Positions 1,851-60,099 are shown, counted from the stretch's first letter. The stretch: DNA of 64,000 nucleotides from an uncultured Gammaproteobacteria bacterium (GCA_964492735.1 CAZBLE010000002.1:64135-128134); one strand, 5' to 3'. Notes: generated from the sequence alone by a model not told the origin. Numbers and translations: made by a program.

Positions 1851-2321
1851 ATGTCTGAAGAAGAGAAAAAAGAAATGACCCCAGAAGCAGCTCCTGAGAC
1901 TGCTGATGTTGCTGTTGAGGCTCCAGAGGAGTCTGAAGAAGAGCGGGTTGCAAAAGAAGCAGAAGCCGCTAAACAGCAGGCTGAAGAAGAGGCTCTTGCC
2001 GCTGAAGAAGTGAAGGATGAGCAAGAACTCCGACCAGGAATGACTGTTCGTGTCCACTTTAAAATCAAAGAAGGTGAAAAAGAACGTATTCAGGTGTTTC
2101 AAGGTATGATTTTGGCACTTCGTGGCAAAACAGCGCCAACAAAAACCATGACCGTTCGTAAAGTAAGCTTTGGTATCGGTGTTGAACGTATTTTCCCACT
2201 TGCATCTCCATTGATTGAAAAGATTGAAATCGTGAAGATTGCGAAAGTGCGTCGTTCAAAATTGTTCTTCATCCGTGATTACGGAAAACGTTTGAAGGAA
2301 ACCCTCGTCAACAAACAATAG
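1851..2321 (+). CDS. rplS: 50S ribosomal protein L19, with a roughly 45-aa acidic (Glu/Ala-rich) N-terminal extension.
   Basis: The C-terminal 110 aa ([30 protein letters not shown]...[28 protein letters not shown]...[10 protein letters not shown]) matches the conserved L19 core. The N-terminus is low-complexity EEAK-rich. Confidence 0.85.
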
Positions 2322-3593: not shown

Positions 3594-5315
3594 ATGTTGA
3601 AACAACGGTTTCACTATCTATATTCAGCGCTCATTCCAGCGCTTCAAATTCAAATTGTTTTATTTTGTGGCTTTCTTTTAAGTCTCGGTGTGAGTATTTT
3701 TTATCAAGTAGTGAATGACCCTCGTTATCCAGTAGAGCGCCCCGCGTTATTATTTTATGGGATTATTATTAGTGGTGCCTGTGTATTATTGGGTCATTTA
3801 CTTAGTAAATACACTATGTATGACCATGAGCTTGATTTAGGGCATGGTGCGTGGGTCGTCTTTTTTACATGGATGATTGCGTGTGCGACTTCTGGCTTTG
3901 TGTTTATGCAGGCAGGATTTCCAGTGCCATCACGCGTTGAAGACTTTGCACTGGCGCGTCGATTTTTTGATGGCTTTTATGAATCAATGTCTGGGTTTAC
4001 AACGACTGGTACAAGTATTTTACCAAGCGTGGAAGCCTTTCCGCGGAGTATTTTATTTTGGCGTTCACTGACGCATTGGATTGGTGGGATGGGGATTGCG
4101 TTTATGGCACTGACCCTTTGGAAGGCAATTACTACTCGACGCTCAGAAGTTATTAATTCAGAAGCAGAGTCACCACATATTATTGCGTTTAAGAATGACC
4201 AAGAATCACGGCAGTCCGGATTTGATTTTTTGAAAACATACAGCTTTTTAAGCGCACTTTGCTTTATTGCGTTGTATCTGTCAGGTCATTTTTTTCGAGA
4301 CGTGCCATATGCACAGTGGTACGATAACCTTTTTGATTCCTTAACGATTACTTTTGGCACAATGGGAACTGGTGGCTTTGGTGTGTATGATTCAAGTATT
4401 GGGTTGCCGATTATAGAAAATGGACAGCTGATTACTGGTGGATTAAGGAATGCTGTTTCAGAATGGATCATTGCGTTTTTCATGGCTTTTGCTGGAATGA
4501 ATTTTGCATTATGGTATTCATTGATTTTTAAGGGCCGATTATTAAACATGCTGAAAAATCGTGAGTTCCAAGTATTTTGGTTATTCATTATTCTCAGCAC
4601 AGCTTCAATTACCTATTTATTGGTTCAATCTGGCATTCATGATTCTACACTTGAGTCATTACGTTTCGCGTTCTTTAATGTCACAAATATTGTTTCAACC
4701 ACTGGTTTTGGTAATGACGATTTCAACCTTTGGCCAGTTGGTGCTCAAGCGATCTTATTCTTGTCATACCTCACAGGCGCAATGGTTGGTTCCACCGGCG
4801 GTGGGTTAAAGTTTATTCGGTTTATCGTCTTGTTTAAATATCTCGGCATGCAAATTAAAAATTTGATCACCGGCTCTCAGAAATCTGGATTTGTTATCGA
4901 TGGTGTACGATACAATGATCGCAGTAGTGCATTGATTATTACGACCGTCACTATTTATTTCATGTTGTTTTTAGGAGGTGCGGTAGTCATTTTGTTGACA
5001 GGCAGTCAGGCGACATTTACAGATGGAACGATCCGCGGTATGGACTTTTTCACAGGATTTAATGCGGCGATTGCCAACCTTGGTAACATCGGGCCATCGA
5101 TTGTCAATGGTATTGCAGGAGCGGGCCCAACTGGGAACTACTCGTCATTTAGTACAGTTGCAAAAGTTGTTATGGCGATTCTGATGTTTATTGGCCGCAT
5201 TGGCGTGTTAACTTGCTTAATGTTGTTTGTGACAAAGCGTGGATTGGAAAATATGAACACTGAAAGAGCAGCAGTTGAATTTGATTCAGATACACCATTA
5301 TTACTCGGACGTTAA
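3594..5315 (+). CDS. trkH: TrkH/KtrB-family cation (K+) transporter, paralog 1.
   Basis: Multi-TM protein carrying the selectivity-filter-like motifs MSGFTTTGTSIL, FGTMGTGGFGVYD, VSTTGFGNDDF and GSTGGGLKFIRF that are characteristic of the Trk/Ktr/HKT superfamily. Confidence 0.8.
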   Translation: MLKQRFHYLYSALIPALQIQIVLFCGFLLSLGVSIFYQVVNDPRYPVERPALLFYGIIISGACVLLGHLLSKYTMYDHELDLGHGAWVVFFTWMIACATSGFVFMQAGFPVPSRVEDFALARRFFDGFYESMSGFTTTGTSILPSVEAFPRSILFWRSLTHWIGGMGIAFMALTLWKAITTRRSEVINSEAESPHIIAFKNDQESRQSGFDFLKTYSFLSALCFIALYLSGHFFRDVPYAQWYDNLFDSLTITFGTMGTGGFGVYDSSIGLPIIENGQLITGGLRNAVSEWIIAFFMAFAGMNFALWYSLIFKGRLLNMLKNREFQVFWLFIILSTASITYLLVQSGIHDSTLESLRFAFFNVTNIVSTTGFGNDDFNLWPVGAQAILFLSYLTGAMVGSTGGGLKFIRFIVLFKYLGMQIKNLITGSQKSGFVIDGVRYNDRSSALIITTVTIYFMLFLGGAVVILLTGSQATFTDGTIRGMDFFTGFNAAIANLGNIGPSIVNGIAGAGPTGNYSSFSTVAKVVMAILMFIGRIGVLTCLMLFVTKRGLENMNTERAAVEFDSDTPLLLGR

Positions 5316-7727: not shown

Positions 7728-7895
7728 TTAAGAAATTGTGGTATCCCAGTAAGTTTTGTGTTGCCCGATTTGCGATGAACAGGAATGAGAGGAGGGGTCT
7801 TATTTATTGCCAATCGGACAACGTGCACATTCTTAATCGAATGAATCGTTGTTTGTTGCAAAAATACAGCACCACTATTCTCGTTGGAGAATCAC

Positions 7896-9392
7896 ATGAT
7901 TCAAAAGATGGATAAGGCGAGGTCTTGGTTTGCGGAGTGCTTTAAGCAGGTTAATTGGATGGATTGGAACATCCTCAACGTGCTAACCTTCGTCGTCGGC
8001 ACACTCTTCTTCGGGACGTTGCTGACGGTCATTGAAGGCCTGTCCATCACGGATGGAGTCTTCATGGTCACTTCGGCTCTGTGCGTCACGGGGCTCTCGA
8101 GCGTCGACTTCTCGCAGTTCACTCCGGCCGGTCAGATTCTCATTGCCCTCTGCATCCAGATGGGTGGGTTGGGAATCGTCACGTTTACTTTGCTGGCGGG
8201 CAGCTACATCGTGACTGGTTTGTCAAAGCGTGAGTCTGTTGCAGCGCTGCTGACCAGCGCTTTTGAAACGGACGACCACAAGTCTGCGCGGTACATGCTC
8301 TTCAGCGTGATCCTGCGGTATACGCTGCTTTTTGAAGGCGGCGGAACCCTGATCATGGGAGCATGGCTCCAGTGGGTCAACACCACAACCTTGTCCCCGG
8401 GCCAAAATCCGTGGACCTGGGCGTTTTTCCATTCCATTTCCGCGTTCAACAACGCAGGGTTTGGCATGGAAAGCGACAACCTGATGAAGTTCGCAGGAGA
8501 CCCGGTTATCAACGGTGTCATTGGCGGGCTGATTATCGCTGGAGGAATCGGCTACACTGTCATCCTCGCAGCTCACGTCTGGGTCCTGCGCCGTCTCGGA
8601 AACGGTGATAACTATCAGCAGCTGTTCGAGAAGCTGGTAGCTTCGCCAGTGCAGATCATCATCGCCCGGCGTGGCACGGTCCTGCTCCTTGCCGTTGGAA
8701 CTTTTGTGCCTCTCGTCATCGAGTGGAACAATCCGATGTTCAAGGACTTCAACACGTTCAGCATGCTGCTAGCAACCTGGTTCAACACCGGCGTGAGCCC
8801 GCGAACGGCAGGCTTCAACACCATTGATTTCAGCCAGTTGCATCCAACGACGCTTTGGCTAACCATTGCGTTGATGTTCATCGGCGCAAACCCTGGCGGC
8901 ACTGCGGGCGGGATCAAGATCCCGACCATGTACGTGCTGTGGGGCTACCTGCGCAACTGGCACCGTGAGCCTGGTGCGCACGTCATCGTTGCACATCACA
9001 TGGTGAGCGGGCGCACGGCCAAAAACGCCATCAACCTTTTCTTCTTCAGCGTCATTTGGGTTGGTATCGCAACCTTCCTGGTGACGGGCGCAGAAGAGTG
9101 GCGGATGGCTGAGGATCCGCGGATCAATCCGCTGGCGCTGCAATTTGAGGTCGTCAGCGCCTTCGGAACAGTTGGACTCAGCTTGGGACACCCGAGCGTC
9201 CCGTACTCGCTCTCTGGTGTGCTGTCCACCTTCAGCAAGTGGGTCATTATTCTCACCATGCTGATCGGTCGCCTCGGTCCGTTGACGTGGCTCGGGCTCT
9301 GGCCGTGGCCGCACAATGAGACAGCAGAGGGTGAAGATGCAGATCTCGATCCCGAAGCTCCTCGTGAGCCGGAGAAGCTGCAGATCGGCTGA
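7896..9392 (+). CDS. trkH: TrkH/KtrB-family cation (K+) transporter, paralog 3. It is GC-rich and probably a xenolog.
   Basis: About 50% identical to paralog 2 (ALCVTGLSSVDF, NNAGFGM, GGIGYTV, TAGGIKIPT), and it shares the C-terminal ...EKLQIG. The coding GC is visibly ~60%, against ~40% in the flanks. ATG 7896 is preceded by GGAGA. The ORF-track start at 7884 is a TTG. Confidence 0.85.
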   Translation: MIQKMDKARSWFAECFKQVNWMDWNILNVLTFVVGTLFFGTLLTVIEGLSITDGVFMVTSALCVTGLSSVDFSQFTPAGQILIALCIQMGGLGIVTFTLLAGSYIVTGLSKRESVAALLTSAFETDDHKSARYMLFSVILRYTLLFEGGGTLIMGAWLQWVNTTTLSPGQNPWTWAFFHSISAFNNAGFGMESDNLMKFAGDPVINGVIGGLIIAGGIGYTVILAAHVWVLRRLGNGDNYQQLFEKLVASPVQIIIARRGTVLLLAVGTFVPLVIEWNNPMFKDFNTFSMLLATWFNTGVSPRTAGFNTIDFSQLHPTTLWLTIALMFIGANPGGTAGGIKIPTMYVLWGYLRNWHREPGAHVIVAHHMVSGRTAKNAINLFFFSVIWVGIATFLVTGAEEWRMAEDPRINPLALQFEVVSAFGTVGLSLGHPSVPYSLSGVLSTFSKWVIILTMLIGRLGPLTWLGLWPWPHNETAEGEDADLDPEAPREPEKLQIG

Positions 9393-9451
9393 TGCATGAT
9401 TCCGGGCAGGCAGTGGGCGGTCCCGCCCCTGCCTGGAACTTCGAGGCCATC

Positions 9452-27368: not shown

Positions 27369-27947
27369 TTATAATTCTTCAACAGCAATTTTGCCGTTTT
27401 TGCTATAGGTTGCCTTTGGAAGAAAGACTGTTAAAATGCCATTTTCCAGAGTTGCGCGGACCTTATCATATTGAATATCAACGGGCAAGATAATGGTTCG
27501 GGAGAAGCCTCCCCAGTAGCATTCTTGAACAAAAAAGTCATCGTCTGCAATATGCGCAAATTGTGGTTTTCGGACGCCCTTGATCGTGATCATGTCGCCG
27601 TTCATGTCGATATCGAGGTCTTCTTTTTTGACACCAGCAACGGTTGAGGTAATAACAACTTCCTGATCAGTTTGAAACACATCAACAGCAAGTTCACCAT
27701 CGTAGGAAATAGGGTCTTCTTTAAGCCAGGTTTCATCAACATCTTTCCCAGAATAGCGAGGGGCGATGTTGGTTTTTGGGAGATGAGCTGATGTTTCGCG
27801 AATTAAGTCTTCAGCATCACGTTCAGCATTTGGATGAAAAGGGGTATCAAGCCCGCCAAATTCACGTCGAAAAAAGTCTTCAGTATATTGAACTTCTTTG
27901 GCGTCGAGCTCTTCCATGTTACGAGCTAGGTCATCGAGGGCAGGCAT
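27369..27947 (-). CDS. Hsp20/alpha-crystallin family small heat-shock protein.
   Basis: The alpha-crystallin domain ...DVFQTDQEVVITSTVAGVKKEDLDIDMNGDMITIKG...GFSRTIILPVDIQYDKVRATLENGILTVFLPKA. I reassigned the start to ATG 27947, downstream of a consensus promoter. The ORF-track start at 28013 is a TTG that lies inside the -35 element. Confidence 0.75.
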   Translation of the reverse strand: MPALDDLARNMEELDAKEVQYTEDFFRREFGGLDTPFHPNAERDAEDLIRETSAHLPKTNIAPRYSGKDVDETWLKEDPISYDGELAVDVFQTDQEVVITSTVAGVKKEDLDIDMNGDMITIKGVRKPQFAHIADDDFFVQECYWGGFSRTIILPVDIQYDKVRATLENGILTVFLPKATYSKNGKIAVEEL

Positions 27948-27984
27948 ATCTTTTATTTGAGTTTGTGGGTCAGTTTCGGATTCA

Positions 27985-28013
27985 ATTATACTGATTTTTT
28001 TAAAATGATGCAA
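27985..28013 (-). promoter_or_regulatory. Near-consensus sigma70 promoter for hsp20.
   Basis: On the minus strand: TTGCAT (28013-28008), a 17-nt spacer, then TATAAT (27990-27985). Confidence 0.55.
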
Positions 28014-28015
28014 CG

Positions 28016-28045
28016 AAAAAGCCGTCTAGAAAGACGACTTTTTGT
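28016..28045 (-). terminator. Intrinsic terminator after tRNA-Glu.
   Basis: Stem CGTCT/AGACG with loop AGAA, flanked by A and T runs. It also reads as a terminator on the plus strand. Confidence 0.55.
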
Positions 28046-28048
28046 TCT

Positions 28049-28123
28049 TGGTACTCGCAAGGGGAATCGAACCCCTATTGCTAGGATGAAAACCTAGTGT
28101 CCTAACCATTAGACGATGCGAGC
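28049..28123 (-). tRNA. tRNA-Glu(TTC): tRNA-Glu (anticodon UUC), with encoded CCA.
   Basis: The reverse complement reads GCTCGCATCGTCTAATGGTTAGGACACTAGGTTTTCATCCTAGCAATAGGGGTTCGATTCCCCTTGCGAGTACCA, with anticodon loop TTTTCAT. Confidence 0.85.
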
Positions 28124-28211
28124 AGATGCAGAATGTAGCCCGCGTAGTATAAAACCGACTTGCACTTCTGTCAATCCTGCTGTAGGCTAGCGGCGCACAA
28201 GGAGGTGCATC

Positions 28212-28307
28212 ATGAGATTGTGTAACGCCGCACGTTTTGCGGCTATCCTCGCGATTTTGGGGGCGATTCGGATCGCCTCCCGGCTTGACGAGACATTTAG
28301 AGGCTAA
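28212..28307 (+). CDS. Candidate 31-aa hydrophobic peptide (MRLCNAARFAAILAILGAIRIASRLDETFRG) with a perfect SD. Possibly a type-I-toxin-like or small membrane protein.
   Basis: AAGGAGGT at 28199-28206 lies 5 nt upstream of the ATG. It has its own candidate promoter (TTGCAC-17-TAGGCT, 28160-28188) and its own terminator. It sits in a GC-rich islet right beside tRNA-Glu. Confidence 0.3.
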   Translation: MRLCNAARFAAILAILGAIRIASRLDETFRG

Positions 28308-28339
28308 CCATGGCCCCTTGTGTCTCGTCGCTCGTTTTT
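28287..28339 (+). terminator. Hairpin plus T-run terminator that encloses the stop codon of the 31-codon ORF.
   Basis: GACGAGACA (28287-28295) pairs with TGTCTCGTC (28321-28329), then GCTCGTTTTTC. Confidence 0.45.
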
Positions 28340-28419
28340 CCTTATAAAATCCACCTCTTGAAAAGAGCCTTCGATTGTGCTATACTCTTGGTCTAAATCT
28401 AATACTATTCATTTTATTT

Positions 28420-29250
28420 ATGGTTAAAGACTACCCACATCCAATTGTGTACATCTCAGATTGCCGAGATGATAATACACGTGGTCGGCTACAAGCGCGT
28501 GTTGCAACATTATTTCATGATAGTCACATCACATTTGTTGGTGTGCATGATGATATCGAAGCTGCAATCAACCTTGTTGATATGATCGATGCATACGACG
28601 GTAAGCCAGGCGTTATCCTTGCAAACGTTGCTCGTCGCGAAGGTCATGCGAAAAAATGGCCAAATGGTACTCCATTCGGACATTTCCGTATTGGTGAATT
28701 AGATATTTTTACAACTATCGACGGGTACATTTTAAGTCTCGTTCAAAAATTATTAGATCATGACATCAGTGTTGATGTATATGATATCCCATCTGTCGTG
28801 CCACACATGCAAGGTCTTGATCCAGAAACGCAAGAACGCATTATTCATACGCAATTCCGCAGTTTTGACTACTTACCACGCCTTGCAGCACACATTATGG
28901 CTGGTGAAAAACTGCCAAAAACAGATACATTTACTCAAGTTCCACTGATTCCAAACGCTGTCTGTTGGGTAGATTCATTCGGTAACCTCAAAACAAACAT
29001 TCTTCCAGAAGAAGTTGGCTTTGAAGTTGGTAAGAGTGTTGTGGTTCGCGTTAGTTCAAACAAACAACTCCGTCTCCCATGCTATAACCGTTTGAAAGAC
29101 ATCCCAGATAACACAGTGGCATTCACTGTTGGGTCATCTGGTATGAACCAAAAACGCTTTCTCGAAATCATGCAACAAGGAAAGAGTGCAGCGTATACTC
29201 TTGGAATGGGCTCAGGCACATTAATTGAGTACGTTGAGACAGTTGATTAA
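28420..29250 (+). CDS. SAM hydroxide adenosyltransferase-like (DUF62) family protein, tentative.
   Basis: A two-domain layout with ...PIVYISDCRDDNTRGRLQARV... and ...GHFRIGELDIFTTIDGYIL... resembling the DUF62 N-terminal domain. I place the start at ATG 28420. Confidence 0.35.
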   Translation: MVKDYPHPIVYISDCRDDNTRGRLQARVATLFHDSHITFVGVHDDIEAAINLVDMIDAYDGKPGVILANVARREGHAKKWPNGTPFGHFRIGELDIFTTIDGYILSLVQKLLDHDISVDVYDIPSVVPHMQGLDPETQERIIHTQFRSFDYLPRLAAHIMAGEKLPKTDTFTQVPLIPNAVCWVDSFGNLKTNILPEEVGFEVGKSVVVRVSSNKQLRLPCYNRLKDIPDNTVAFTVGSSGMNQKRFLEIMQQGKSAAYTLGMGSGTLIEYVETVD

Positions 29251-29256
29251 GCACCA

Positions 29257-30297
29257 ATGGAATCAGTATTGATTCTCGGAATTGAAAGCTCGTTCGACGA
29301 CACCGGTGTGTCAGTTGTGCGAGCTTTTTCTGATGGGCAATTTGAGATTCTTTCAAATGAGCTGGCACTGCAAGACCATGTGAAAACTGGTGGTGCTGTG
29401 CCAGAGCTCGCAGCGCGGCGTCATGGAGAGAATATTGTGCCGACGATCCAACGTGCCTTGTCGGAAGCTGCTGCAGCGCCCGCGGATATTGATGTGATTG
29501 CAGTGACAACGACTCCTGGAATGATTGCCTGTTTGCAAGTCGGTATTGAAACGGCTAGAACACTGGCGGTGAGTTGGAGCAAGCCATTGATTGGCGTGCA
29601 TCACATGAAGGCGCATATTGCGAGTACATTCGCGGAACACCCGCACGTCGCATTTCCAGCAGTGGTGTTGCTTGCGAGTGGTGCGCATACGATGTTGGTC
29701 AGAATGGATTCAGCAGAGCAGTATGTGCTGCTTGGGCAAACACGCGATGATGCGGCAGGAGAAGCGTTTGATAAAATTGCACGAATGCTCGGACTGCCAT
29801 ATCCAGGTGGCCCAGAAATTGCGCGTATTGCAGAGGGTGGCGATGCTACGGCCTTTGCTTTTCCACGGCCAATGCTTCGTGAGTCAGGATTTGAGTTTTC
29901 ATTTGCGGGCTTAAAAACCGCTATTTTATATACTATTCGTGATCTCGGTGGTATTGATGCATTAACAGAACAGCAGCGCGCTGATCTCGCAGCAAGCGCA
30001 CAGCAGGCGATTATTGACGTGCTTGTGCAAAAAACCATACGAGCAGTCAAACAAGAGCATGCACAGACAGTGATTCTCGGGGGAGGAGTGTCAGCAAATG
30101 TTGCGCTGCGTGGCCAATTAGAAACAGCTGTTGCTGGAGTAGGTCAGGATTGTGTATTGATTGTACCGTCTCCTGGATTATTTACAGATAACGGCGCGAT
30201 GATTGCAATTGCGGCAGCTTCACGCGCATTGCGAAAAGAATATGATGATCCATTTTCATTGACCCCAGCAGCACGTACGCCGATTGATCAGGGGTGA
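29257..30297 (+). CDS. tsaD: tRNA N6-adenosine threonylcarbamoyltransferase TsaD (Kae1/YgjD family).
   Basis: LILGIESSFDDTGVSVV... at the N-terminus, a metal-binding HxxxH region (HHMKAHIAS) and the conserved C-terminal ...GGGVSANVALR. Confidence 0.9.
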   Translation: MESVLILGIESSFDDTGVSVVRAFSDGQFEILSNELALQDHVKTGGAVPELAARRHGENIVPTIQRALSEAAAAPADIDVIAVTTTPGMIACLQVGIETARTLAVSWSKPLIGVHHMKAHIASTFAEHPHVAFPAVVLLASGAHTMLVRMDSAEQYVLLGQTRDDAAGEAFDKIARMLGLPYPGGPEIARIAEGGDATAFAFPRPMLRESGFEFSFAGLKTAILYTIRDLGGIDALTEQQRADLAASAQQAIIDVLVQKTIRAVKQEHAQTVILGGGVSANVALRGQLETAVAGVGQDCVLIVPSPGLFTDNGAMIAIAAASRALRKEYDDPFSLTPAARTPIDQG

Positions 30298-49578: not shown

Positions 49579-50340
49579 ATGTCCATCGACACAAAGAATA
49601 TTTTACGGCAAATCGGTTTTACAGATTCTGAAATTTTGATATATCTTGCTGCTATTCAGTATGGGCCAATGACTGTTATTGAGTTGGCAAAGCATTCTGG
49701 GCTCACTCGCCAAATGGTCTATACACTCCTGCCGCGTCTTGAAAAAGAAAGTTTAATGAAAGAAGTGCGGTCTGATAGTAAGCGTTTATTTGCAGCCACT
49801 GATCCAAAATTATTAGAAGATCGCGTAAACATGATTGCGCGTGATGTACGGTATGTGATTCCGCAATTACAAATGATGCATTCAGAGAATGCAATGTTAC
49901 CGATTATGACTGTTTATGATAATCCTTTGAGCATTCGGGAGTTGTATCGTCGTTTTATGAAAGAAGCTGTGCCAGAAGAAGATGTTCGTTTGTGGGTAAC
50001 GAATAAAGTGTGGGTGAGTATGGATGCCGATTATTTACGGACGTTTGTGCATTTTAAAAATAAGCATAGAATACGTGATTTAATTATTGCACCTGACACC
50101 AAAGAGTCGCGGTCATATGCAAAAGAAATGTTTCAACCGTATTCTGAGTACCGTTTTTTGAAAGATCATTGGAATACAAATGCAGAGAAATGGATCTGGA
50201 GAGATATTATTGTATACTTAACAATTAGCGATGAAGCAACAAATTTAATAGTCGTTGAATCACCCGCACTCGCAGCAATTGAACGGGCTGGGTTTGACGC
50301 TGTTTGGAGGTCATTACCAAAAGGGAGGAAGTCTATGTAG
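49579..50340 (+). CDS. TrmB-family transcriptional regulator.
   Basis: N-terminal HTH ILRQIGFTDSEILIYLAAIQYGPMTVIELAKHSGLTRQMVYTLLPRLEKESLM, plus a C-terminal TrmB-like domain. Confidence 0.55.
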   Translation: MSIDTKNILRQIGFTDSEILIYLAAIQYGPMTVIELAKHSGLTRQMVYTLLPRLEKESLMKEVRSDSKRLFAATDPKLLEDRVNMIARDVRYVIPQLQMMHSENAMLPIMTVYDNPLSIRELYRRFMKEAVPEEDVRLWVTNKVWVSMDADYLRTFVHFKNKHRIRDLIIAPDTKESRSYAKEMFQPYSEYRFLKDHWNTNAEKWIWRDIIVYLTISDEATNLIVVESPALAAIERAGFDAVWRSLPKGRKSM

Positions 50341-50491
50341 ATATTGATATGAGGCGTGAAGGTACAAAAATTTTGAGGAGGATATTTGTATCAGGTATAT
50401 TGTTTATCAAATAAGAAAGGGAACCAGCACGCCGACCCAACTCTGCTCAGTGAGGGAGGGTGGTCCTTGTGCTGGTTGGCGCGTTTATCTG

Positions 50492-51011
50492 TCAGGTCGC
50501 CGCGCGGTAGGTCGTTGCGCTGGGGCGGATGCAGAGCCAGTCATCGGGGTAGATCAGGTCGTCGTCAGTAAGGTTCGTCACAACGAACCCGGAGTTGATG
50601 ACGACCACATCATCGCCGTAGCGCTGCTTGAGCTCTTTCACCGTCCAACCAGCTTCTTCGCTGGCGATGGTGATCTGTGCGGCTCGGGGGTAGCGGAAGG
50701 TGATCCGCAGTCCAGCAGGGAGGGGGGTATCTCGGTTGAGGTCTTCGATGAGCTCGAGACCTTCGCCATCCGCGATTGCCAAGCCACGAATGTCTGCGAG
50801 GTCTTCTGCTTCCACGAGCTCCTCGAGAAGTTGACCGAGAGTCTGTCCCTCAAAGGTCTCTCCCGTTGCGATGCGGCCCCCGGCGCTCACCATCCGTCCC
50901 GTTCCCAGGACGATGTAGTTGCAGCCGCCGAGCTGCGTCATCGTGGCTGCCGCGAACATCGCACCAAGCCTAGTTAACAATCCTCTGCGTGTCAGGCTCA
51001 TAGGAGCGCCT
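50492..51011 (-). CDS. Twin-arginine (Tat) signal lipoprotein, hypothetical. GC-rich.
   Basis: AGGAGG lies 7 nt upstream of ATG 51011. MSLTRRGLLTRLGAMFAAATMTQLGGC gives an RR motif plus an LGGC lipobox. The C-terminal half is beta-grasp-like. Confidence 0.5.
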
Positions 51012-51413
51012 CCTGGTTTGTTTGCTCCGAAGATTTGTCGATGCGGCGCCATCAACAAATTTTGGCAACAAAAAAACCGGGCACAGCCGGAATATCAAAA
51101 ATATTCACATACGCTGTTTCCACTCCACGAGAAACGTCAGAAAAATCTTTGAACTGGACCTGGCTTATTCGCTCTTCCAGAGAAGGCGACATGACAGTTG
51201 CGGGTCAGCGCTGGGAATCACACCCAGACTTCCGTTGCAAAGAAGGTGACAAACTTCGAACAAAGAACGATAGTACAAGCACTATAACATAGTTTTTCAA
51301 TTACTACATCTAGTGTTATCCACAGAGAATAGGCACTATAGAGCGGATTTATTAATGAACGCCATTTTTTAGCAAAAAAATATGAAGAAGGGAATATGGT
51401 CATTGCTCCACTG

Positions 51414-52193
51414 TCAGTGAATGTGACCTTCTTCCTCTTCTTCATACACACGACCACTGTGGTCCGTGTGGTCGTGGTGCGCACCCGGCTTTACAATGTG
51501 ATGGTCAAAGCCGGCACGGAACTGGACCCCGAGGCTGCCGCACTTGCTCTGGCACCAGTCAGTGCCAGTAAAGCCTGCATGTGAACTCATGAGCATGAGC
51601 TCGTAGATTCCGCGGCTCATGTGTCCGGTTTCAAGGCGTAGCACGAGACCGATGTTTAGCTCAGCATAACTGACGCCGAAGAAGCTACTTGAGTGAGCCT
51701 CTGGTACAAATGCCGGTGCCCATTCAATCCGCGCACCAATGCCAAAGCTGCGGCGAGTCTCAATATGAGGCACAACTGTCAGCGCGATTTGCGCATCTTC
51801 AGCGTCCGCGTGGACCTCTAAGTCACCGTAGAGTCGGAAGTTGCCGCCTGGCAAGCCCCAGCGCGTGTCAATGACACCGCCGCCAGAGATTGCGACCCCA
51901 TTTTGTTCAAGATGCAGACCGAGAGCTGGCCCGATGTCAACTTCAAACCACTGGCCATTTTCTGTGTGGCCGTGGATGTCGAGGCCAGCGTGGCAATCTC
52001 CATGCCCAAGCAAAGTCCCATCAGAACTGGTGATACCAGATCCAACAAGGCCGCCGTGGCAGCCAATCGAAAAGGCAATGGGGATTTTCCCTTCTGCCTC
52101 ATGTGCATGCTCATCTTCTTCCGCGACTGCTTTCGCAAGCGGAAAAAAGAGCACGAAGAAAGAGCAGATAAACAACCGGACAATTGAACGCAT
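51414..52193 (-). CDS. Secreted His-rich (putative metal-binding) protein. GC-rich.
   Basis: A signal peptide. His clusters at both ends (EEDEHAHEAEG...; ...GAHHDHTDHSGRVYEEEEEGHIH) and many internal His/Asp residues. Its promoter shares the znuA operator. Confidence 0.5.
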   Translation of the reverse strand: MRSIVRLFICSFFVLFFPLAKAVAEEDEHAHEAEGKIPIAFSIGCHGGLVGSGITSSDGTLLGHGDCHAGLDIHGHTENGQWFEVDIGPALGLHLEQNGVAISGGGVIDTRWGLPGGNFRLYGDLEVHADAEDAQIALTVVPHIETRRSFGIGARIEWAPAFVPEAHSSSFFGVSYAELNIGLVLRLETGHMSRGIYELMLMSSHAGFTGTDWCQSKCGSLGVQFRAGFDHHIVKPGAHHDHTDHSGRVYEEEEEGHIH

Positions 52194-57851: not shown

Positions 57852-58280
57852 TTATGCTTGTTTTTTGTAGACGAAGAATGTTGCAACAGAACTAATGAAG
57901 CTCACGACCCAAGCGAGCCATGCAACGTAATATCCCATTTCCATTTTTGTGATTCCAAGAGTTTCAGCTGATGCACTGCCTGAAACATTTGCAGATGCCA
58001 TTGGAACTAATACAACAACTAAGAGGAGGATGCTTAAAATTGCCATCATCTTTTTTGCTTTCCATGCAGCGAATGCAGAAACAAGTAGAAGAATCACACC
58101 GATTGCGATCACAAATGTTTGCTTTGGTTTCACTGCGTCTTCAATTGTTGCTTTTGCAAAACTTGCAAGACTGCCTTCTGGAACAACGATCCAAGTCATG
58201 AGACCGGCAACAATAAATAAAATACTTCCGATGTAGTTTGCGATTGCAACGGGGTGCAATAGGTATGATTTATTTTCCAT
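57852..58280 (-). CDS. Hypothetical small membrane protein (4 TM).
   Basis: Hydrophobic throughout. No known domain. Confidence 0.35.
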   Translation of the reverse strand: MENKSYLLHPVAIANYIGSILFIVAGLMTWIVVPEGSLASFAKATIEDAVKPKQTFVIAIGVILLLVSAFAAWKAKKMMAILSILLLVVVLVPMASANVSGSASAETLGITKMEMGYYVAWLAWVVSFISSVATFFVYKKQA

Positions 58281-58432
58281 AAGAAAATGATATATTGATT
58301 AATACCTCAAAGAATAGCAGATATGGGATTTTTCTGAAAGTGAAATGGTGTGTAGAAACAACAAAACCTCGGTCTGCATACAGCGAGCTGTAGCGTTCCG
58401 AGGATTTTCTCCTCTTGAGAGCACCGGTCGGA

Positions 58433-58705
58433 TCAGGACCGGCTCAATCGCCTCACGGCGATGATGCGCACGGCGTTCCGTGCGGCTCGGAGGGCGGCGA
58501 CGGTCTGATTGACCTCGCCGTCACCCCAGGGAAGGAGGCTAATGCCAATGGCACCGGCCTCACAGGTGCAAAGCGTGGCCAGAAGGCCGGCCACGCCACC
58601 GTTGTCGGGACAGGACGCCCAGAGCGCGAGGGCGCTCAGGACGGCCATCGTACAGAGGTTCCGGAGCCGCAGGAGCGGGTCCGGAGGACACAACCACTTC
58701 ATCAT
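58433..58705 (-). CDS. Hypothetical 90-aa Cys-containing small membrane protein encoded in a GC-rich islet.
   Basis: AGGAGGA lies 4 nt upstream of ATG 58705. The sequence is MMKWLCPPDPLLRLRNLCTMAVLSALALWASCPDNGGVAGLLATLCTCEAGAIGISLLPWGDGEVNQTVAALRAARNAVRIIAVRRLSRS. Confidence 0.4.
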   Translation of the reverse strand: MMKWLCPPDPLLRLRNLCTMAVLSALALWASCPDNGGVAGLLATLCTCEAGAIGISLLPWGDGEVNQTVAALRAARNAVRIIAVRRLSRS

Positions 58706-58896
58706 GGCGTCCTCCTCTTGCACTGCCAGGCGGCAGCGCCAGTGCCGAGGGATTCGGCAACTGCAGACTGCTGAGGACTCCATCCATCAGACTGCAATTT
58801 CCGATCCAGCATGCCATTAAGGGGCGTGTATATTGCACACCTTATACGCGAATATTCAGTATTTGTCTAGTACCCCTTGTGGAGAGCTCTGCCGAT

Positions 58897-59178
58897 TTAT
58901 TCAGTTCGTTGTATCAGTGTTATTGTTCCATTATCACTAATGAAATTATCAAGCACAGGAATATCGGCGGCAGATCGAATTGTCCAGTTTAAGAAGGTGA
59001 TAAGAAGAGCGGCGATAATTGATGCGCCGACTGCATATCCAGCACCTTTTCCAATTGAAATAACAACATTCCATTTAAACGAAATTTGCTTTTCAATTTT
59101 TTTGTCGAGTTCATGAATTCGCTGAGAGAGCTGCTGTAGTTCATGTTCGAGTTCTTGTTCTTTTTTTATTTGTACCAT
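58897..59178 (-). CDS. Small coiled-coil plus TM hypothetical protein.
   Basis: MVQIKKEQELEHELQQLSQRIHELDKKIEKQ, then a TM helix. Native AT-rich codon usage. Confidence 0.35.
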   Translation of the reverse strand: MVQIKKEQELEHELQQLSQRIHELDKKIEKQISFKWNVVISIGKGAGYAVGASIIAALLITFLNWTIRSAADIPVLDNFISDNGTITLIQRTE

Positions 59179-59328
59179 ACGGAAAGTATAGAACAATTTG
59201 TATCAAATAGACAAAGTGCGGAGTGGTCAGTTCCGCCTGCGATTCGACTTCGGGGTGTTGTGTGAAGTGAGTCGCTTTTTTGACCGGTGGTGGTTGGCAC
59301 GGTGACGGCAGACTCCAGTACCCTAGGT

Positions 59329-59982
59329 TCAGCCGTTGAGACCGTGCACCGTGCGGAACGCCGGAAGAGTGCACAGGTGCTCGTACACTCCCCAGATCTT
59401 CGGCCACTTCTCCGAGACGGGGAGGCTGAAGCGGCTGATCGCCGCCCAGACCTCGGTGCCGAGGGTGATGTCGGCGAGCGTCAAGCGCTCGCCAACGCAG
59501 AAGTCTGGGTCGCTCTGGTGGAGCTTGAGCATCCTCTCGAGGGCGTCGAAGGCACGCCCTACCCAGAAGATCGACCAGCCGTTGGTCTCGGCCCTGCTGG
59601 TGTAGTGAGCTTCCTGCATCAGCCGCAGGAGCGGCTGGCGGTTGCCGAGCGGCCTCAGGTCCGAGTCCAGGAGCCGCATGATCTCCCGAACCCGGAAGCG
59701 CTCGAGTGTGCCTTCGCCCAGCAGCTGTGCCTTAGGACACAGCTCGGCGAAGTACTCCATGATTGCCCCACTTTGAGTGAGGACATCCTCCACCTTGCCG
59801 TGACCCGTCAGGTCGAGGGCAGGGACACGCTGGTTCGGGTTAATCGCCGTGAAGGCGCTCCCGAACTGCTCTTCTGCGGCCAGGTTGACTTCGATCAGTG
59901 TGTAGTTGATTCTGAGGAGGGCAAGGACGACGCGCACGGGCTTTGGGCCCCGTGCCGCTTCGCATGAATAGAGTTTCATCAT
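59329..59982 (-). CDS. Glutathione S-transferase (zeta/maleylacetoacetate-isomerase-like). GC-rich.
   Basis: GGAGG lies 6 nt upstream of the ATG. KLYSCEAARGPKPVRVVLAL...NPNQRVPAL...QSGAIMEYF gives the N-terminal thioredoxin-like GST domain plus a C-terminal helical domain. Confidence 0.7.
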   Translation of the reverse strand: MMKLYSCEAARGPKPVRVVLALLRINYTLIEVNLAAEEQFGSAFTAINPNQRVPALDLTGHGKVEDVLTQSGAIMEYFAELCPKAQLLGEGTLERFRVREIMRLLDSDLRPLGNRQPLLRLMQEAHYTSRAETNGWSIFWVGRAFDALERMLKLHQSDPDFCVGERLTLADITLGTEVWAAISRFSLPVSEKWPKIWGVYEHLCTLPAFRTVHGLNG

Positions 59983-60099
59983 GCACAACCTCCATGGTTG
60001 AGTGCAGAATTACCCTAAGCCGTCTCAGATATTTGGTCAACTGATGTATACGGAGTTTTTTAGCAAGCCGAGCGCACTATATGTGCTATACTATTTTTT

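What the first reader, a model, noticed from the sequence alone, without database searches (positions are those of the whole stretch)
28130..28340. A tRNA-Glu-adjacent GC-rich islet carrying an SD-led 31-codon hydrophobic peptide with its own promoter and terminator.
Immediately 3' of tRNA-Glu, a classic integration hotspot, lies a ~200-bp GC-rich unit. It holds a candidate promoter (TTGCAC-17-TAGGCT), a perfect SD (AAGGAGGT), the ORF MRLCNAARFAAILAILGAIRIASRLDETFRG (one TM-like helix with flanking Arg), and a 9-bp hairpin plus T-run terminator that encloses the stop codon. The architecture resembles type I toxin or small membrane peptide genes, or a remnant of an integrated element. It falls below the 60-aa cutoff of the ORF track.
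Basis: seen in the sequence. Interest (0 to 1): 0.6.

Follow-up and report, generated by a model that had tools for sequence, protein, structure and literature searches.

The report
Conserved 31-codon membrane-peptide gene beside tRNA-Glu
The flagged 200 bases hold a genuine, evolutionarily conserved mini-gene for a 31-residue membrane peptide in an uncultured CPR (Peregrinibacteria-like) bacterium, and it is unusual mainly because it carries a textbook ribosome-binding site in a genome that otherwise almost never uses one.

Summary
tRNA-Glu lies on the minus strand, so the islet is upstream (5') of the tRNA and overlaps its promoter; it is not 3' of it.

Five related genomes carry the same unit at the same place. 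Each has a weak + promoter interleaved with the strong tRNA-Glu promoter, then GGAGGT 6 nt before an ATG, a 28-31-codon (one 65-codon) hydrophobic ORF, and a hairpin enclosing the stop codon. The downstream SAM_HAT (DUF62) gene has its own conserved promoter.

Across species with dS of about 0.4-1.3, the ORF keeps its length. It shows dN/dS of 0.21-0.41 in its own frame, against about 0.5-1.4 in the other two frames. The one length difference is an in-frame 9-nt deletion. The terminator helix is maintained by compensatory changes.

My verdict is a real, translated, fast-evolving, lineage-restricted small membrane-protein gene with no detectable homologue. I found no antisense promoter, no sequestered SD, no paralogues and no att repeats. 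The type I toxin and integrated-element readings are therefore not supported.

The genome is SD-scarce: 0 of about 48 long ORFs has an SD. The consensus SD therefore either marks foreign origin or gives this ORF a special mode of initiation. Function remains inferred.

The parts
28049..28123 (-). tRNA-Glu(UUC), with encoded CCA. This is the neighbouring gene, whose promoter overlaps the unit.
   Evidence: ARAGORN. Rfam tRNA model, 65.5 bits.
28146..28174 (-). tRNA-Glu promoter TTGACA-17-TATACT (11/12 match). It is interleaved with the small-ORF promoter.
   Evidence: The same promoter is found in L001, L020, L019, L002 and L021.
28160..28188 (+). Candidate promoter of the small ORF: TTGCAC-17-TAGGCT (7/12 match). 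TTGC and TGTAG..T are kept in all six loci. The inferred TSS is about 28195.
   Evidence: Sequence. Alignments. Not flagged by the consensus scan, so this part is inferred.
28199..28206 (+). Consensus Shine-Dalgarno AAGGAGGT, 5 nt before the ATG. It lies in the loop and 3' arm of a 4-bp 5'-terminal hairpin (28195-28208).
   Evidence: The GGAGGT core is invariant in 6/6 loci. Hairpin.
28212..28307 (+). 31-codon ORF MRLCNAARFAAILAILGAIRIASRLDETFRG. It has a hydrophobic helix at about residues 3-23 followed by a charged tail.
   Evidence: Orthologues. dN/dS of 0.21-0.41 in frame against 0.5-1.4 out of frame. Hydropathy.
28227..28243 (+). Intra-ORF hairpin A: GCCGCA / UGCGGC.
   Evidence: 96% of cells are paired, with one-sided changes only.
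28258..28281 (+). Intra-ORF hairpin B: GGGGGCGAU-UCGG-AUCGCCUCC.
   Evidence: 78% of cells are paired, and 2 pairs have changes on both sides.
28287..28339 (+). Terminator-like compound hairpin (28287-28331) enclosing the TAA stop, followed by GCUCG and UUUUU (28335-28339).
   Evidence: 7 of 15 pairs have compensatory double changes. An equivalent hairpin is present in all orthologues.
28358..28386 (+). Independent promoter (TTGAAA-17-TGcTATACT) of the downstream SAM_HAT_C/DUF62 gene (28420-29250). It marks the right-hand boundary of the unit.
   Evidence: Conserved and also present in loci without the islet. Pfam PF20257.

Best explanation
This is a self-contained mini-gene producing a roughly 145-nt monocistronic mRNA (about 28195-28340, + strand). 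It encodes a 31-residue single-helix membrane peptide.

How expression is set:
- Transcription starts from a weak sigma-70-type promoter. Its -35 and spacer are interleaved with the strong divergent tRNA-Glu promoter, so the two promoters probably compete for RNA polymerase (inferred).
- Translation is driven by a consensus Shine-Dalgarno 5 nt upstream of the ATG (inferred from conservation together with the coding signature).
- The mRNA is compact and structured. It has a 5' hairpin, two hairpins inside the ORF, and a long 3' hairpin whose 5' arm is formed by the last five codons and whose loop holds the stop codon. The 3' hairpin most likely ends and stabilises the transcript. A terminating ribosome would have to open it (inferred).

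The peptide has a roughly 20-residue hydrophobic helix and a short charged, mostly acidic tail. It most likely inserts into the cytoplasmic membrane and acts there as a small accessory membrane protein.

The gene is confined to a narrow clade of CPR (Peregrinibacteria/Kerfeldbacteria-like) genomes. It evolves about ten times faster at the protein level than its neighbour. Its high GC and its SD in an SD-scarce genome are compatible with acquisition from outside.

Shown: the anatomy, the conservation, the purifying selection in frame, the compensatory maintenance of the 3' hairpin, and the absence of known homologues. Inferred: the TSS, promoter competition, membrane insertion, and the biological role.
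For: Conservation:
- The same unit sits at the same position (tRNA-Glu(-) | ORF(+) | DUF62(+)) in L001, L002, L019, L020 and L021.
- ATG and GGAGGT are invariant.
- The gene was called as a 31-aa gene in GCA_964608475.1.

Coding signature:
- Four orthologues keep exactly 31 codons, although the neighbouring gene shows dS of 0.44-1.3.
- In the ORF frame pS is 0.43-0.64 and pN is 0.14-0.30, giving dN/dS of 0.21-0.41 in all 6 pairs. The two alternative frames give 0.47-1.41 and contain stops.
- L002 differs by an in-frame 9-nt gap.

Hydrophobicity is kept even where the sequence is not. The best 19-residue Kyte-Doolittle windows score 1.7-2.5 in all six peptides.

RNA structure:
- 86% of cells are paired, against 38-53% in the slid controls.
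- 11 pairs have changes on both sides, 7 of them in the terminator helix.
- 0/500 shuffles reach the observed values.

Independence from the downstream gene: a conserved promoter lies between the hairpin and DUF62 in every locus, including loci that lack the islet.

Outlier status: 0 of about 48 long ORFs in the window has a GGAGG-type SD. SD-led ORFs otherwise occur in GC-rich islands.
Against: - There is no expression data.
- The + promoter is a poor consensus match (7/12).
- The T-run is separated from the stem by 5 nt and is weak in L001 and L019, so termination efficiency is uncertain.
- If this lineage's 16S rRNA lacks the CCUCC anti-SD, the 'SD' could not work as such. This has been reported for the peregrinibacterium Ca. 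Peribacter riflensis (PMC10783764).
- The window peptide has Arg at positions 8 and 20 inside the helix. Its longest uncharged run is only 11 residues, which is marginal for a transmembrane segment. The orthologues have runs of 17-20.
- Only 5-6 sequences from one narrow clade are available, so the selection and covariation statistics rest on few, related genomes.
- In L021 the ORF is replaced by an unrelated 65-codon ORF whose stop lies beyond the terminator. That may be a pseudogene or an assembly frameshift.
- No homologue with a known function was found.
Confidence: 0.75

Rival explanations
1. Type I toxin-antitoxin-like module. The peptide would be a membrane-depolarising toxin, with translation held in check by an antisense or trans-acting sRNA and by mRNA structure.
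For: - The peptide is small and hydrophobic with a charged tail, and its mRNA is strongly structured.
- Its distribution is narrow and patchy, and its protein evolves fast.
- One strain (L021) has the ORF replaced by a different transmembrane ORF and has a weak antisense promoter, CTGACT-17-TATACT, 3' of that ORF.
Against: - No antisense promoter is conserved in the six loci.
- The SD is exposed in a hairpin loop, not sequestered, and no conserved anti-SD element lies within the transcript (my own inspection).
- There are no paralogous copies in 64 kb.
- There is no match to Pfam, NCBIfam or PADLOC-type toxin families at E<=10 in Pfam and NCBIfam.
- Toxicity is untested.
Confidence: 0.12
2. 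Cis-regulatory leader (upstream ORF plus attenuator) for the downstream SAM_HAT/DUF62-tsaD genes. A ribosome reaching the stop codon inside the terminator hairpin would melt the hairpin and allow read-through, coupling downstream expression to translation of the leader.
For: - The stop codon lies inside the terminator hairpin in five of six loci, and the 5' arm is coding.
- The unit is always directly upstream of, and co-oriented with, DUF62.
- The terminator's T-run is imperfect, so read-through is plausible.
Against: - A conserved strong promoter (TTGAAA-17-TGnTATACT) lies between the hairpin and DUF62 in every locus.
- DUF62 orthologues at 63-82% identity have that promoter or other upstream genes, and no leader.
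- No alternative antiterminator pairing and no run of regulatory codons are evident.
- The peptide sequence itself is under purifying selection for a hydrophobic helix. A pure ribosome-sensor uORF would not need that.
Confidence: 0.08
3. A structured non-coding sRNA, or a mere tRNA-promoter upstream region, in which the open reading frame is incidental.
For: - Four hairpins are conserved, with compensatory changes including two inside the ORF.
- The genome hardly uses SDs, and a relative is reported to lack the anti-SD core.
- The z-score for folding is about -3 on both strands.
Against: - Substitutions are frame-specific, with dN/dS of 0.2-0.4 only in the ORF frame.
- ORF length is exactly preserved and the one indel is in frame.
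- The start context is invariant.
- A hydrophobic ORF is retained even in L002 and L021, where the nucleotide sequence has diverged or been replaced.
- There is no Rfam match even at E<=10.
Confidence: 0.05

Closest known systems
Bacterial small membrane proteins of under 50 aa encoded by stand-alone small ORFs (for example KdpF, CydX, AcrZ, MgtS, Prli42). Comparison is from general knowledge.
   Same: - Length is about 30 aa.
- It has a single hydrophobic helix with short charged flanks.
- It has its own ribosome-binding site.
- It is missed by ORF-length cut-offs.
- Sequence conservation is weak while hydrophobicity is conserved.
   Different: - There is no sequence match to any of them.
- It is not in an operon with a membrane complex; it is monocistronic with its own promoter and terminator.
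- It is confined to a few CPR genomes.
Type I toxins of the Fst/Ldr, TisB and Hok kinds. Comparison is from general knowledge.
   Same: - Hydrophobic peptide of about 30 aa followed by a charged or acidic tail (for example ...SRLDE).
- GC-rich, highly structured short mRNA.
- Patchy, strain-variable distribution.
   Different: - No antisense RNA gene is detectable.
- The SD is not sequestered.
- It is single-copy.
- No family-model hit.
The rpsU mRNA of Flavobacteriia, which is the lone strong-SD gene in an SD-blind lineage (PMC9976891, PMC13000453).
   Same: A consensus or extended SD stands out in a genome whose genes otherwise lack SDs.
   Different: - The product here is a hydrophobic peptide, not ribosomal protein bS21.
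- Peregrinibacteria frequently lack bS21 altogether (PMC9297842).
- Other SD-led ORFs in this window lie in GC-rich, probably acquired islands. The SD may therefore simply be a relic of origin.

Membership tests
Stand-alone small membrane-protein gene | Translated ORF: conserved start context and protein-level purifying selection. | tested here: met
   GGAGGT plus ATG are invariant in 6/6 loci. dN/dS is 0.21-0.41 in frame against 0.47-1.41 out of frame. The one indel is in frame.
Stand-alone small membrane-protein gene | A hydrophobic segment long enough to span a membrane. | tested here: met
   Best 19-residue hydropathy is 1.7-2.5 in all six peptides, and uncharged runs are 17-31 residues in five of six. 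The window copy is marginal, with Arg8 and Arg20 and an uncharged run of 11.
Type I toxin-antitoxin | An antisense (cis) or adjacent sRNA antitoxin gene overlapping the toxin mRNA. | tested here: not met
   Consensus promoter scans of six loci find no conserved minus-strand promoter over or 3' of the ORF. Only L021 has a 9/12 match. This is a sequence-only test; RNA-seq would be decisive.
Type I toxin-antitoxin | A translationally inert primary transcript, with the SD sequestered by a conserved intramolecular pairing. | tested here: not met
   In the consensus structure the SD lies in the loop of a 4-bp 5' hairpin. The CCUCC at 28276-28280 that could pair with it is not conserved in the orthologues. 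The UGCACUUCU:GGAGGUGCA pairing seen lies upstream of the inferred TSS.
Type I toxin-antitoxin | The peptide is toxic on overexpression. | not testable with these tools
   Requires an experiment.
Integrated element or remnant at a tRNA gene | Located at the 3' end of the tRNA and flanked by a direct repeat of the tRNA 3' segment (attL/attR). | tested here: not met
   The islet is at the 5' (promoter) side of a minus-strand tRNA. The 27-nt 3' end of tRNA-Glu occurs once in the window even with up to 3 mismatches allowed. No meaningful direct repeats lie in 27000-29500.
Leader-peptide transcription attenuator | Leader ORF and terminator lie in the 5' UTR of the regulated gene, with no intervening promoter, and with mutually exclusive terminator and antiterminator structures. 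| tested here: not met
   A conserved 10/12 promoter with an extended -10 lies between the hairpin and DUF62. No alternative pairing appears in the consensus fold.
Any Rfam RNA family | A covariance-model match. | tested here: not met
   No hit in 28124-28450 at gathering thresholds or at E<=10.

The most novel reading that the evidence does not exclude
In an SD-scarce CPR genome, this peptide gene is the one native-context ORF in the window with a consensus SD that has been conserved across species. It could therefore be translated by a specialised, SD-dependent route. Examples would be translation only by ribosomes whose 16S 3' tail is free, or only under conditions when the competing tRNA-Glu promoter is shut down. 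That would make the peptide a growth-state or ribosome-state-gated membrane effector. It would be analogous in logic to rpsU in Flavobacteriia but would have a membrane-active output. It might also be the first type I-toxin-like module in Patescibacteria.
Probability: 0.1. Interest if true: 0.7.

Novelty: new member of a known kind. Interest (0 to 1): 0.38.

Why it matters
Small membrane proteins are systematically missed in annotation, and almost nothing is known about them in CPR/Patescibacteria. These bacteria have reduced genomes, and their episymbiotic lifestyle depends on the cell envelope. This locus gives a clean, comparative-genomics-validated example. It shows a frame-specific selection signature, a conserved start context and a compensatorily maintained terminator. 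It also flags that a consensus SD has been maintained in a lineage that otherwise does without SDs. That makes it a convenient natural reporter for asking whether these ribosomes can still use SD-anti-SD pairing. On present evidence it remains an orphan accessory gene of unknown role, not a new kind of system.

Tried and rejected
- **Rfam.** Scans of the whole window at gathering thresholds and of 28000-28450 at E<=10 found only the tRNA.
- **phmmer.** The 31-aa peptide against 1.84 billion representatives gave 0 hits at E<=0.001. Power is low for a 31-aa hydrophobic query. Even the true orthologues, at about 55% identity, would score near E~1.
- **The search for homologous proteins.** The tool refuses queries under 40 aa. 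A concatenation of four orthologous peptides gave nothing at E<=10. The 65-aa L021 ORF found only itself.
- **Family models.** Pfam and NCBIfam at E<=10 gave only sub-threshold transmembrane noise.
- **tblastn.** The peptide found no match in the plasmid or phage collections.
- **IMG/VR.** A pattern scan for SD-ATG-MRxC gave one hit (L024), which is an unrelated zinc-finger-like ORF and so a chance match.
- **Exact look-up** of the window peptide in the gene-position index: not on record.
- **More distant DUF62 loci.** L003, L004, L008, L009, L015, L016, L018 and L023 all lack the unit. Two JGI contigs had no DNA available.
- **att repeats and paralogues.** None in the window.
- **SD-sequestering helix.** The helix UGCACUUCU:GGAGGUGCA appears in the fold of 28124-28350. 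I rejected it because its 5' arm is the promoter -35 region, upstream of the inferred TSS. Its conservation is explained by the two -35 boxes.
- **MITE/REP-like insertion.** Considered, but there are no terminal repeats and no other copies.

Full report
**1. What is in the sequence**

The window around the finding reads, left to right on the + strand, as follows.

- An Hsp20 gene lies on the minus strand at 27369-27947 (PF00011).
- A bidirectional hairpin lies at about 28019-28040.
- tRNA-Glu(UUC) lies on the minus strand at 28049-28123.
- The flagged segment follows.
- A PF20257 (SAM hydroxide adenosyltransferase C-terminal, 'DUF62') gene lies at 28420-29250, followed by tsaD.

- TTGCAC (28160-28165), a 17-nt spacer and TAGGCT (28183-28188).
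- AAGGAGGT at 28199-28206.
- ATG at 28212.
- A 31-codon ORF ending with TAA at 28305-28307.
- A 9-bp stem, 28287-28295 with 28321-28329, around that stop.
- TTTTT at 28335-28339.

GC is 54% for 28130-28340 and 58% for the 28175-28335 core, against 43.5% for the window. Six per cent of equal-sized windows are at least as GC-rich.

Orientation needs correcting. The tRNA is on the minus strand, so the segment is upstream of it. Positions 28146-28174 are an 11/12 sigma-70 promoter on the minus strand (TTGACA-17-TATACT), placed correctly to drive the tRNA. The proposed + promoter is interleaved with it: each promoter's -35 box lies in the other's spacer.

Taken alone, none of the motifs exceeds chance. 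AAGGAGGT occurs twice in the window against 1.07 expected. The + promoter is too weak to pass the scan. The scan does not call the large hairpin a terminator, because its loop is 25 nt and the T-run is 5 nt from the stem.

**2. Comparative evidence**

I used the DUF62 protein to fetch related loci. This gave five further genomes with the same arrangement, tRNA-Glu(-) | small ORF(+) | DUF62(+). They are L001, L002, L019, L020 and L021. The first hits are labelled Peregrinibacteria, Kerfeldbacteria or Peribacteria, or are mislabelled MAGs, so the organism is a CPR bacterium.

The peptides are:

| Locus | Peptide | Length |
|---|---|---|
| window | MRLCNAARFAAILAILGAIRIASRLDETFRG | 31 |
| L020 | MRLCNAAHFAAILVILAAIRVAVRLDEAFEG | 31 |
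| L001 | MRICAVANFAVILALLAAIRVAVEIDEALKG | 31 |
| L019 | MRICAAVNFAAILTLLVAISVARRIDEVLED | 31 |
| L002 | MDLVRTAVVVLVLAAIAALTALVEQLED | 28 |
| L021 | non-alignable ORF with an N-terminal hydrophobic helix | 65 |

L002 differs from the 31-aa forms by an in-frame 9-nt gap. L019's copy was independently called as a gene in its assembly.

All six loci keep the following:

- the tRNA promoter;
- the TTGC...-17-TG-TAG..T element;
- GGAGGT 5-6 nt before the ATG;
- a hairpin around or at the end of the ORF;
- the DUF62 promoter TTGAAA-17-TGnTATACT.

These genomes are not strains of one species. The neighbouring DUF62 gene has dS of 0.44-1.3 with 90-98% amino-acid identity, giving dN/dS of 0.02-0.06. 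Over the same distances the small ORF keeps its exact length. In its own frame pS is 0.43-0.64 and pN is 0.14-0.30, so dN/dS is 0.21-0.41 in all six pairwise comparisons. The two other frames give 0.47-1.41 and carry stop codons in several genomes. This frame-specific signature, the in-frame indel and the invariant start context are the main reasons I conclude that the ORF is translated. Constraint is about ten-fold weaker than on DUF62. That is typical where mainly hydrophobicity matters. All six peptides have a 19-residue window with Kyte-Doolittle mean of 1.7-2.5.

**3. RNA anatomy**

RNAalifold on five orthologues gives four hairpins.

- A 4-bp 5' hairpin with the SD core in its loop.
- Hairpin A at 28227-28243.
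- Hairpin B at 28258-28281.
- A long compound 3' hairpin at 28287-28331, with the stop codon inside.

Counting pairs gives the following.

- 86% of cells are paired, against 38-53% when partners are slid by 1-3 columns.
- 11 pairs have changes on both sides, 7 of them in the 3' hairpin.
- 0/500 shuffles reach the observed paired fraction or the observed number of double changes.

Two caveats apply. There are only five related sequences, and the structure was derived from the same alignment.

The 3' hairpin is clearly selected. Its arms differ almost completely between the window (GACGAGACA/TGTCTCGTC) and L001 (ACGAAGCGCTT/AAGCGCTTCGT), yet they pair in both. Single-sequence folds have z of about -3 on both strands.

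**4. What it is not**

- *A known RNA family.* Rfam finds nothing in the segment even at E<=10.
- *A known protein family.* There is no Pfam or NCBIfam family, no phmmer hit among 1.84 billion representatives (low power), and no tblastn hit in plasmids or phages. Two work-around searches found nothing, and an IMG/VR pattern hit was a chance match.
- *An integrated element at a tRNA.* It is on the wrong (5') side of the tRNA, and there is no repeat of the tRNA 3' end or any other flanking repeat.
- *A type I toxin-antitoxin module.* No antisense promoter is conserved. The SD is not sequestered within the inferred transcript. No other copy lies in 64 kb.
- *A leader-peptide attenuator for DUF62.* A conserved strong promoter separates the hairpin from DUF62. 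DUF62 genes in genomes without the unit have the same kind of promoter directly upstream.

**5. Distribution and origin**

The unit is absent upstream of DUF62 in every more distant relative examined: L003, L004, L008, L009, L015, L016, L018 and L023.

L015 is the most informative case. Its DUF62 is 82% identical. There, tRNA-Glu is on the + strand, followed by a terminator and the DUF62 promoter, with no small ORF. The clade that has the peptide gene therefore also has the tRNA inverted. Gain of the unit is thus linked to a local rearrangement, but not to a recognisable integration event.

The genome is essentially SD-free. None of about 48 long ORFs has a GGAGG-type SD before its start, and the usual context is AT-rich. 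SD-led ORFs occur in GC-rich islands at 50-52 kb and 58-60 kb, the latter including a GST. The 8-9.4 kb island, 57% GC and holding a TrkH gene, has no GGAGG-type SD before its ORF. Together these point to horizontally acquired DNA.

The small-ORF unit shares that signature of higher GC plus a consensus SD. A foreign origin is therefore plausible, but it is an inference. The Ala/Gly/Arg-rich peptide and the hairpins would raise GC by themselves.

The literature agrees that at least one peregrinibacterium, Ca. Peribacter riflensis, is SD-scarce with 7% of genes. The same source reports that it lacks a conserved CCUCC (PMC10783764). Peregrinibacteria also often lack bS21 (PMC9297842). Whether this organism's 16S rRNA retains the anti-SD could not be checked, because there is no rRNA in the window. 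The conserved spacing of SD and ATG, together with the coding signature, argues that the SD is used.

**6. Most likely mechanism**

Shown: an autonomous unit with a conserved start context, a selected ORF and a selected 3' hairpin.

Inferred:

- A transcript of about 145 nt starts near 28195 from a weak promoter. That promoter must compete with the overlapping, much stronger tRNA-Glu promoter.
- Initiation is efficient and SD-dependent.
- The roughly 20-residue helix inserts into the membrane, leaving a short charged tail.
- The 3' hairpin ends and stabilises the message. Terminating ribosomes open it transiently.

The biological role of the peptide is unknown. I commit to 'accessory small membrane protein' as the most probable reading. 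The rivals are a toxin-like role at about 0.12, a leader/attenuator at about 0.08, and a purely non-coding RNA at about 0.05.

**7. Novelty and score**

This is a new, orphan member of a known kind: stand-alone small membrane-protein genes. It is interesting for two reasons. It is a well-validated small ORF in a CPR genome. It is also a conserved consensus SD in an SD-scarce lineage, for which the closest parallel is rpsU in Flavobacteriia (PMC9976891, PMC13000453), although the product and context differ. Nothing here suggests a new kind of system, so interest is moderate to low (0.38).

Noticed in passing
whole window (for example starts at 3594, 12513, 23008-24018(-), 28420, 29257): The genome is essentially Shine-Dalgarno-free. 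0 of about 48 long ORFs has GGAGG/AGGAG within 18 nt of its first start, and the typical start context is AT-rich (...TTTTATG). This matches published SD scarcity in a peregrinibacterium (PMC10783764).
   Followed up: partly
window 8001-9400; 50000-52000; 58000-60000: These are GC-rich islands (51-57% GC against 43.5% overall) that look horizontally acquired. The genes are TrkH (7884-9392 +), a TAT-signal-like 169-aa ORF behind CCAGGAGG (about 50492-51001, -), and a glutathione S-transferase (59329-59982, -) behind CATGGAGG. Between 58415 and 58838, overlapping roughly 90-120-aa ORFs on both strands make the coding strand unclear.
   Followed up: partly
L021:2094-2291 (GCA_964632705.1, CAZWCN010000080.1): In a genome whose DUF62 is 97% identical to the window's, the 31-codon ORF is replaced by a non-alignable 65-codon ORF with an N-terminal hydrophobic helix. 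The replacement sits in the same slot, behind the same promoter and a TAGGAGGT SD. Its stop lies 24 nt beyond the terminator hairpin and T-run, so it may be a pseudogene or an assembly frameshift. A weak antisense promoter (CTGACT-17-TATACT, 2313..2285) lies 3' of it.
   Followed up: partly
L015:1-170 (Logan SRR28385527_9158): In the nearest relative without the small ORF (DUF62 82% identical), tRNA-Glu is on the opposite strand, co-oriented with DUF62. It is followed by a bidirectional terminator, AAAAAAGAGCCTTCAAGGCTCTTTTT. Half of that hairpin (AAAGAGCCTTC) survives at window 28370-28380. This suggests a local inversion accompanied gain or loss of the unit.
   Followed up: partly
window 27985-28045: A compact signal cluster lies here. 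A hairpin at 28023-28036, flanked by A- and T-runs, can terminate tRNA-Glu transcription on the minus strand. It is immediately followed on the minus strand by TTGCAT-17-TATAAT, a likely Hsp20 promoter. The Hsp20 ORF probably starts at the ATG at 27947, not the TTG at 28013 listed by the ORF finder.
   Followed up: no
window 28160-28174: The -35 boxes of the divergent tRNA-Glu and small-ORF promoters are only 9 nt apart centre to centre, and each lies in the other's spacer. The two promoters should therefore be mutually exclusive. The arrangement is conserved in all six loci.
   Followed up: partly
protein hits P0043-P0050: Close homologues (58-59% identity) of this CPR DUF62/SAM_HAT protein appear in MMETSP eukaryotic transcriptomes, for example Hemiselmis andersenii. 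This suggests either transfer into algae or CPR-like contaminants or symbionts in those cultures.
   Followed up: no
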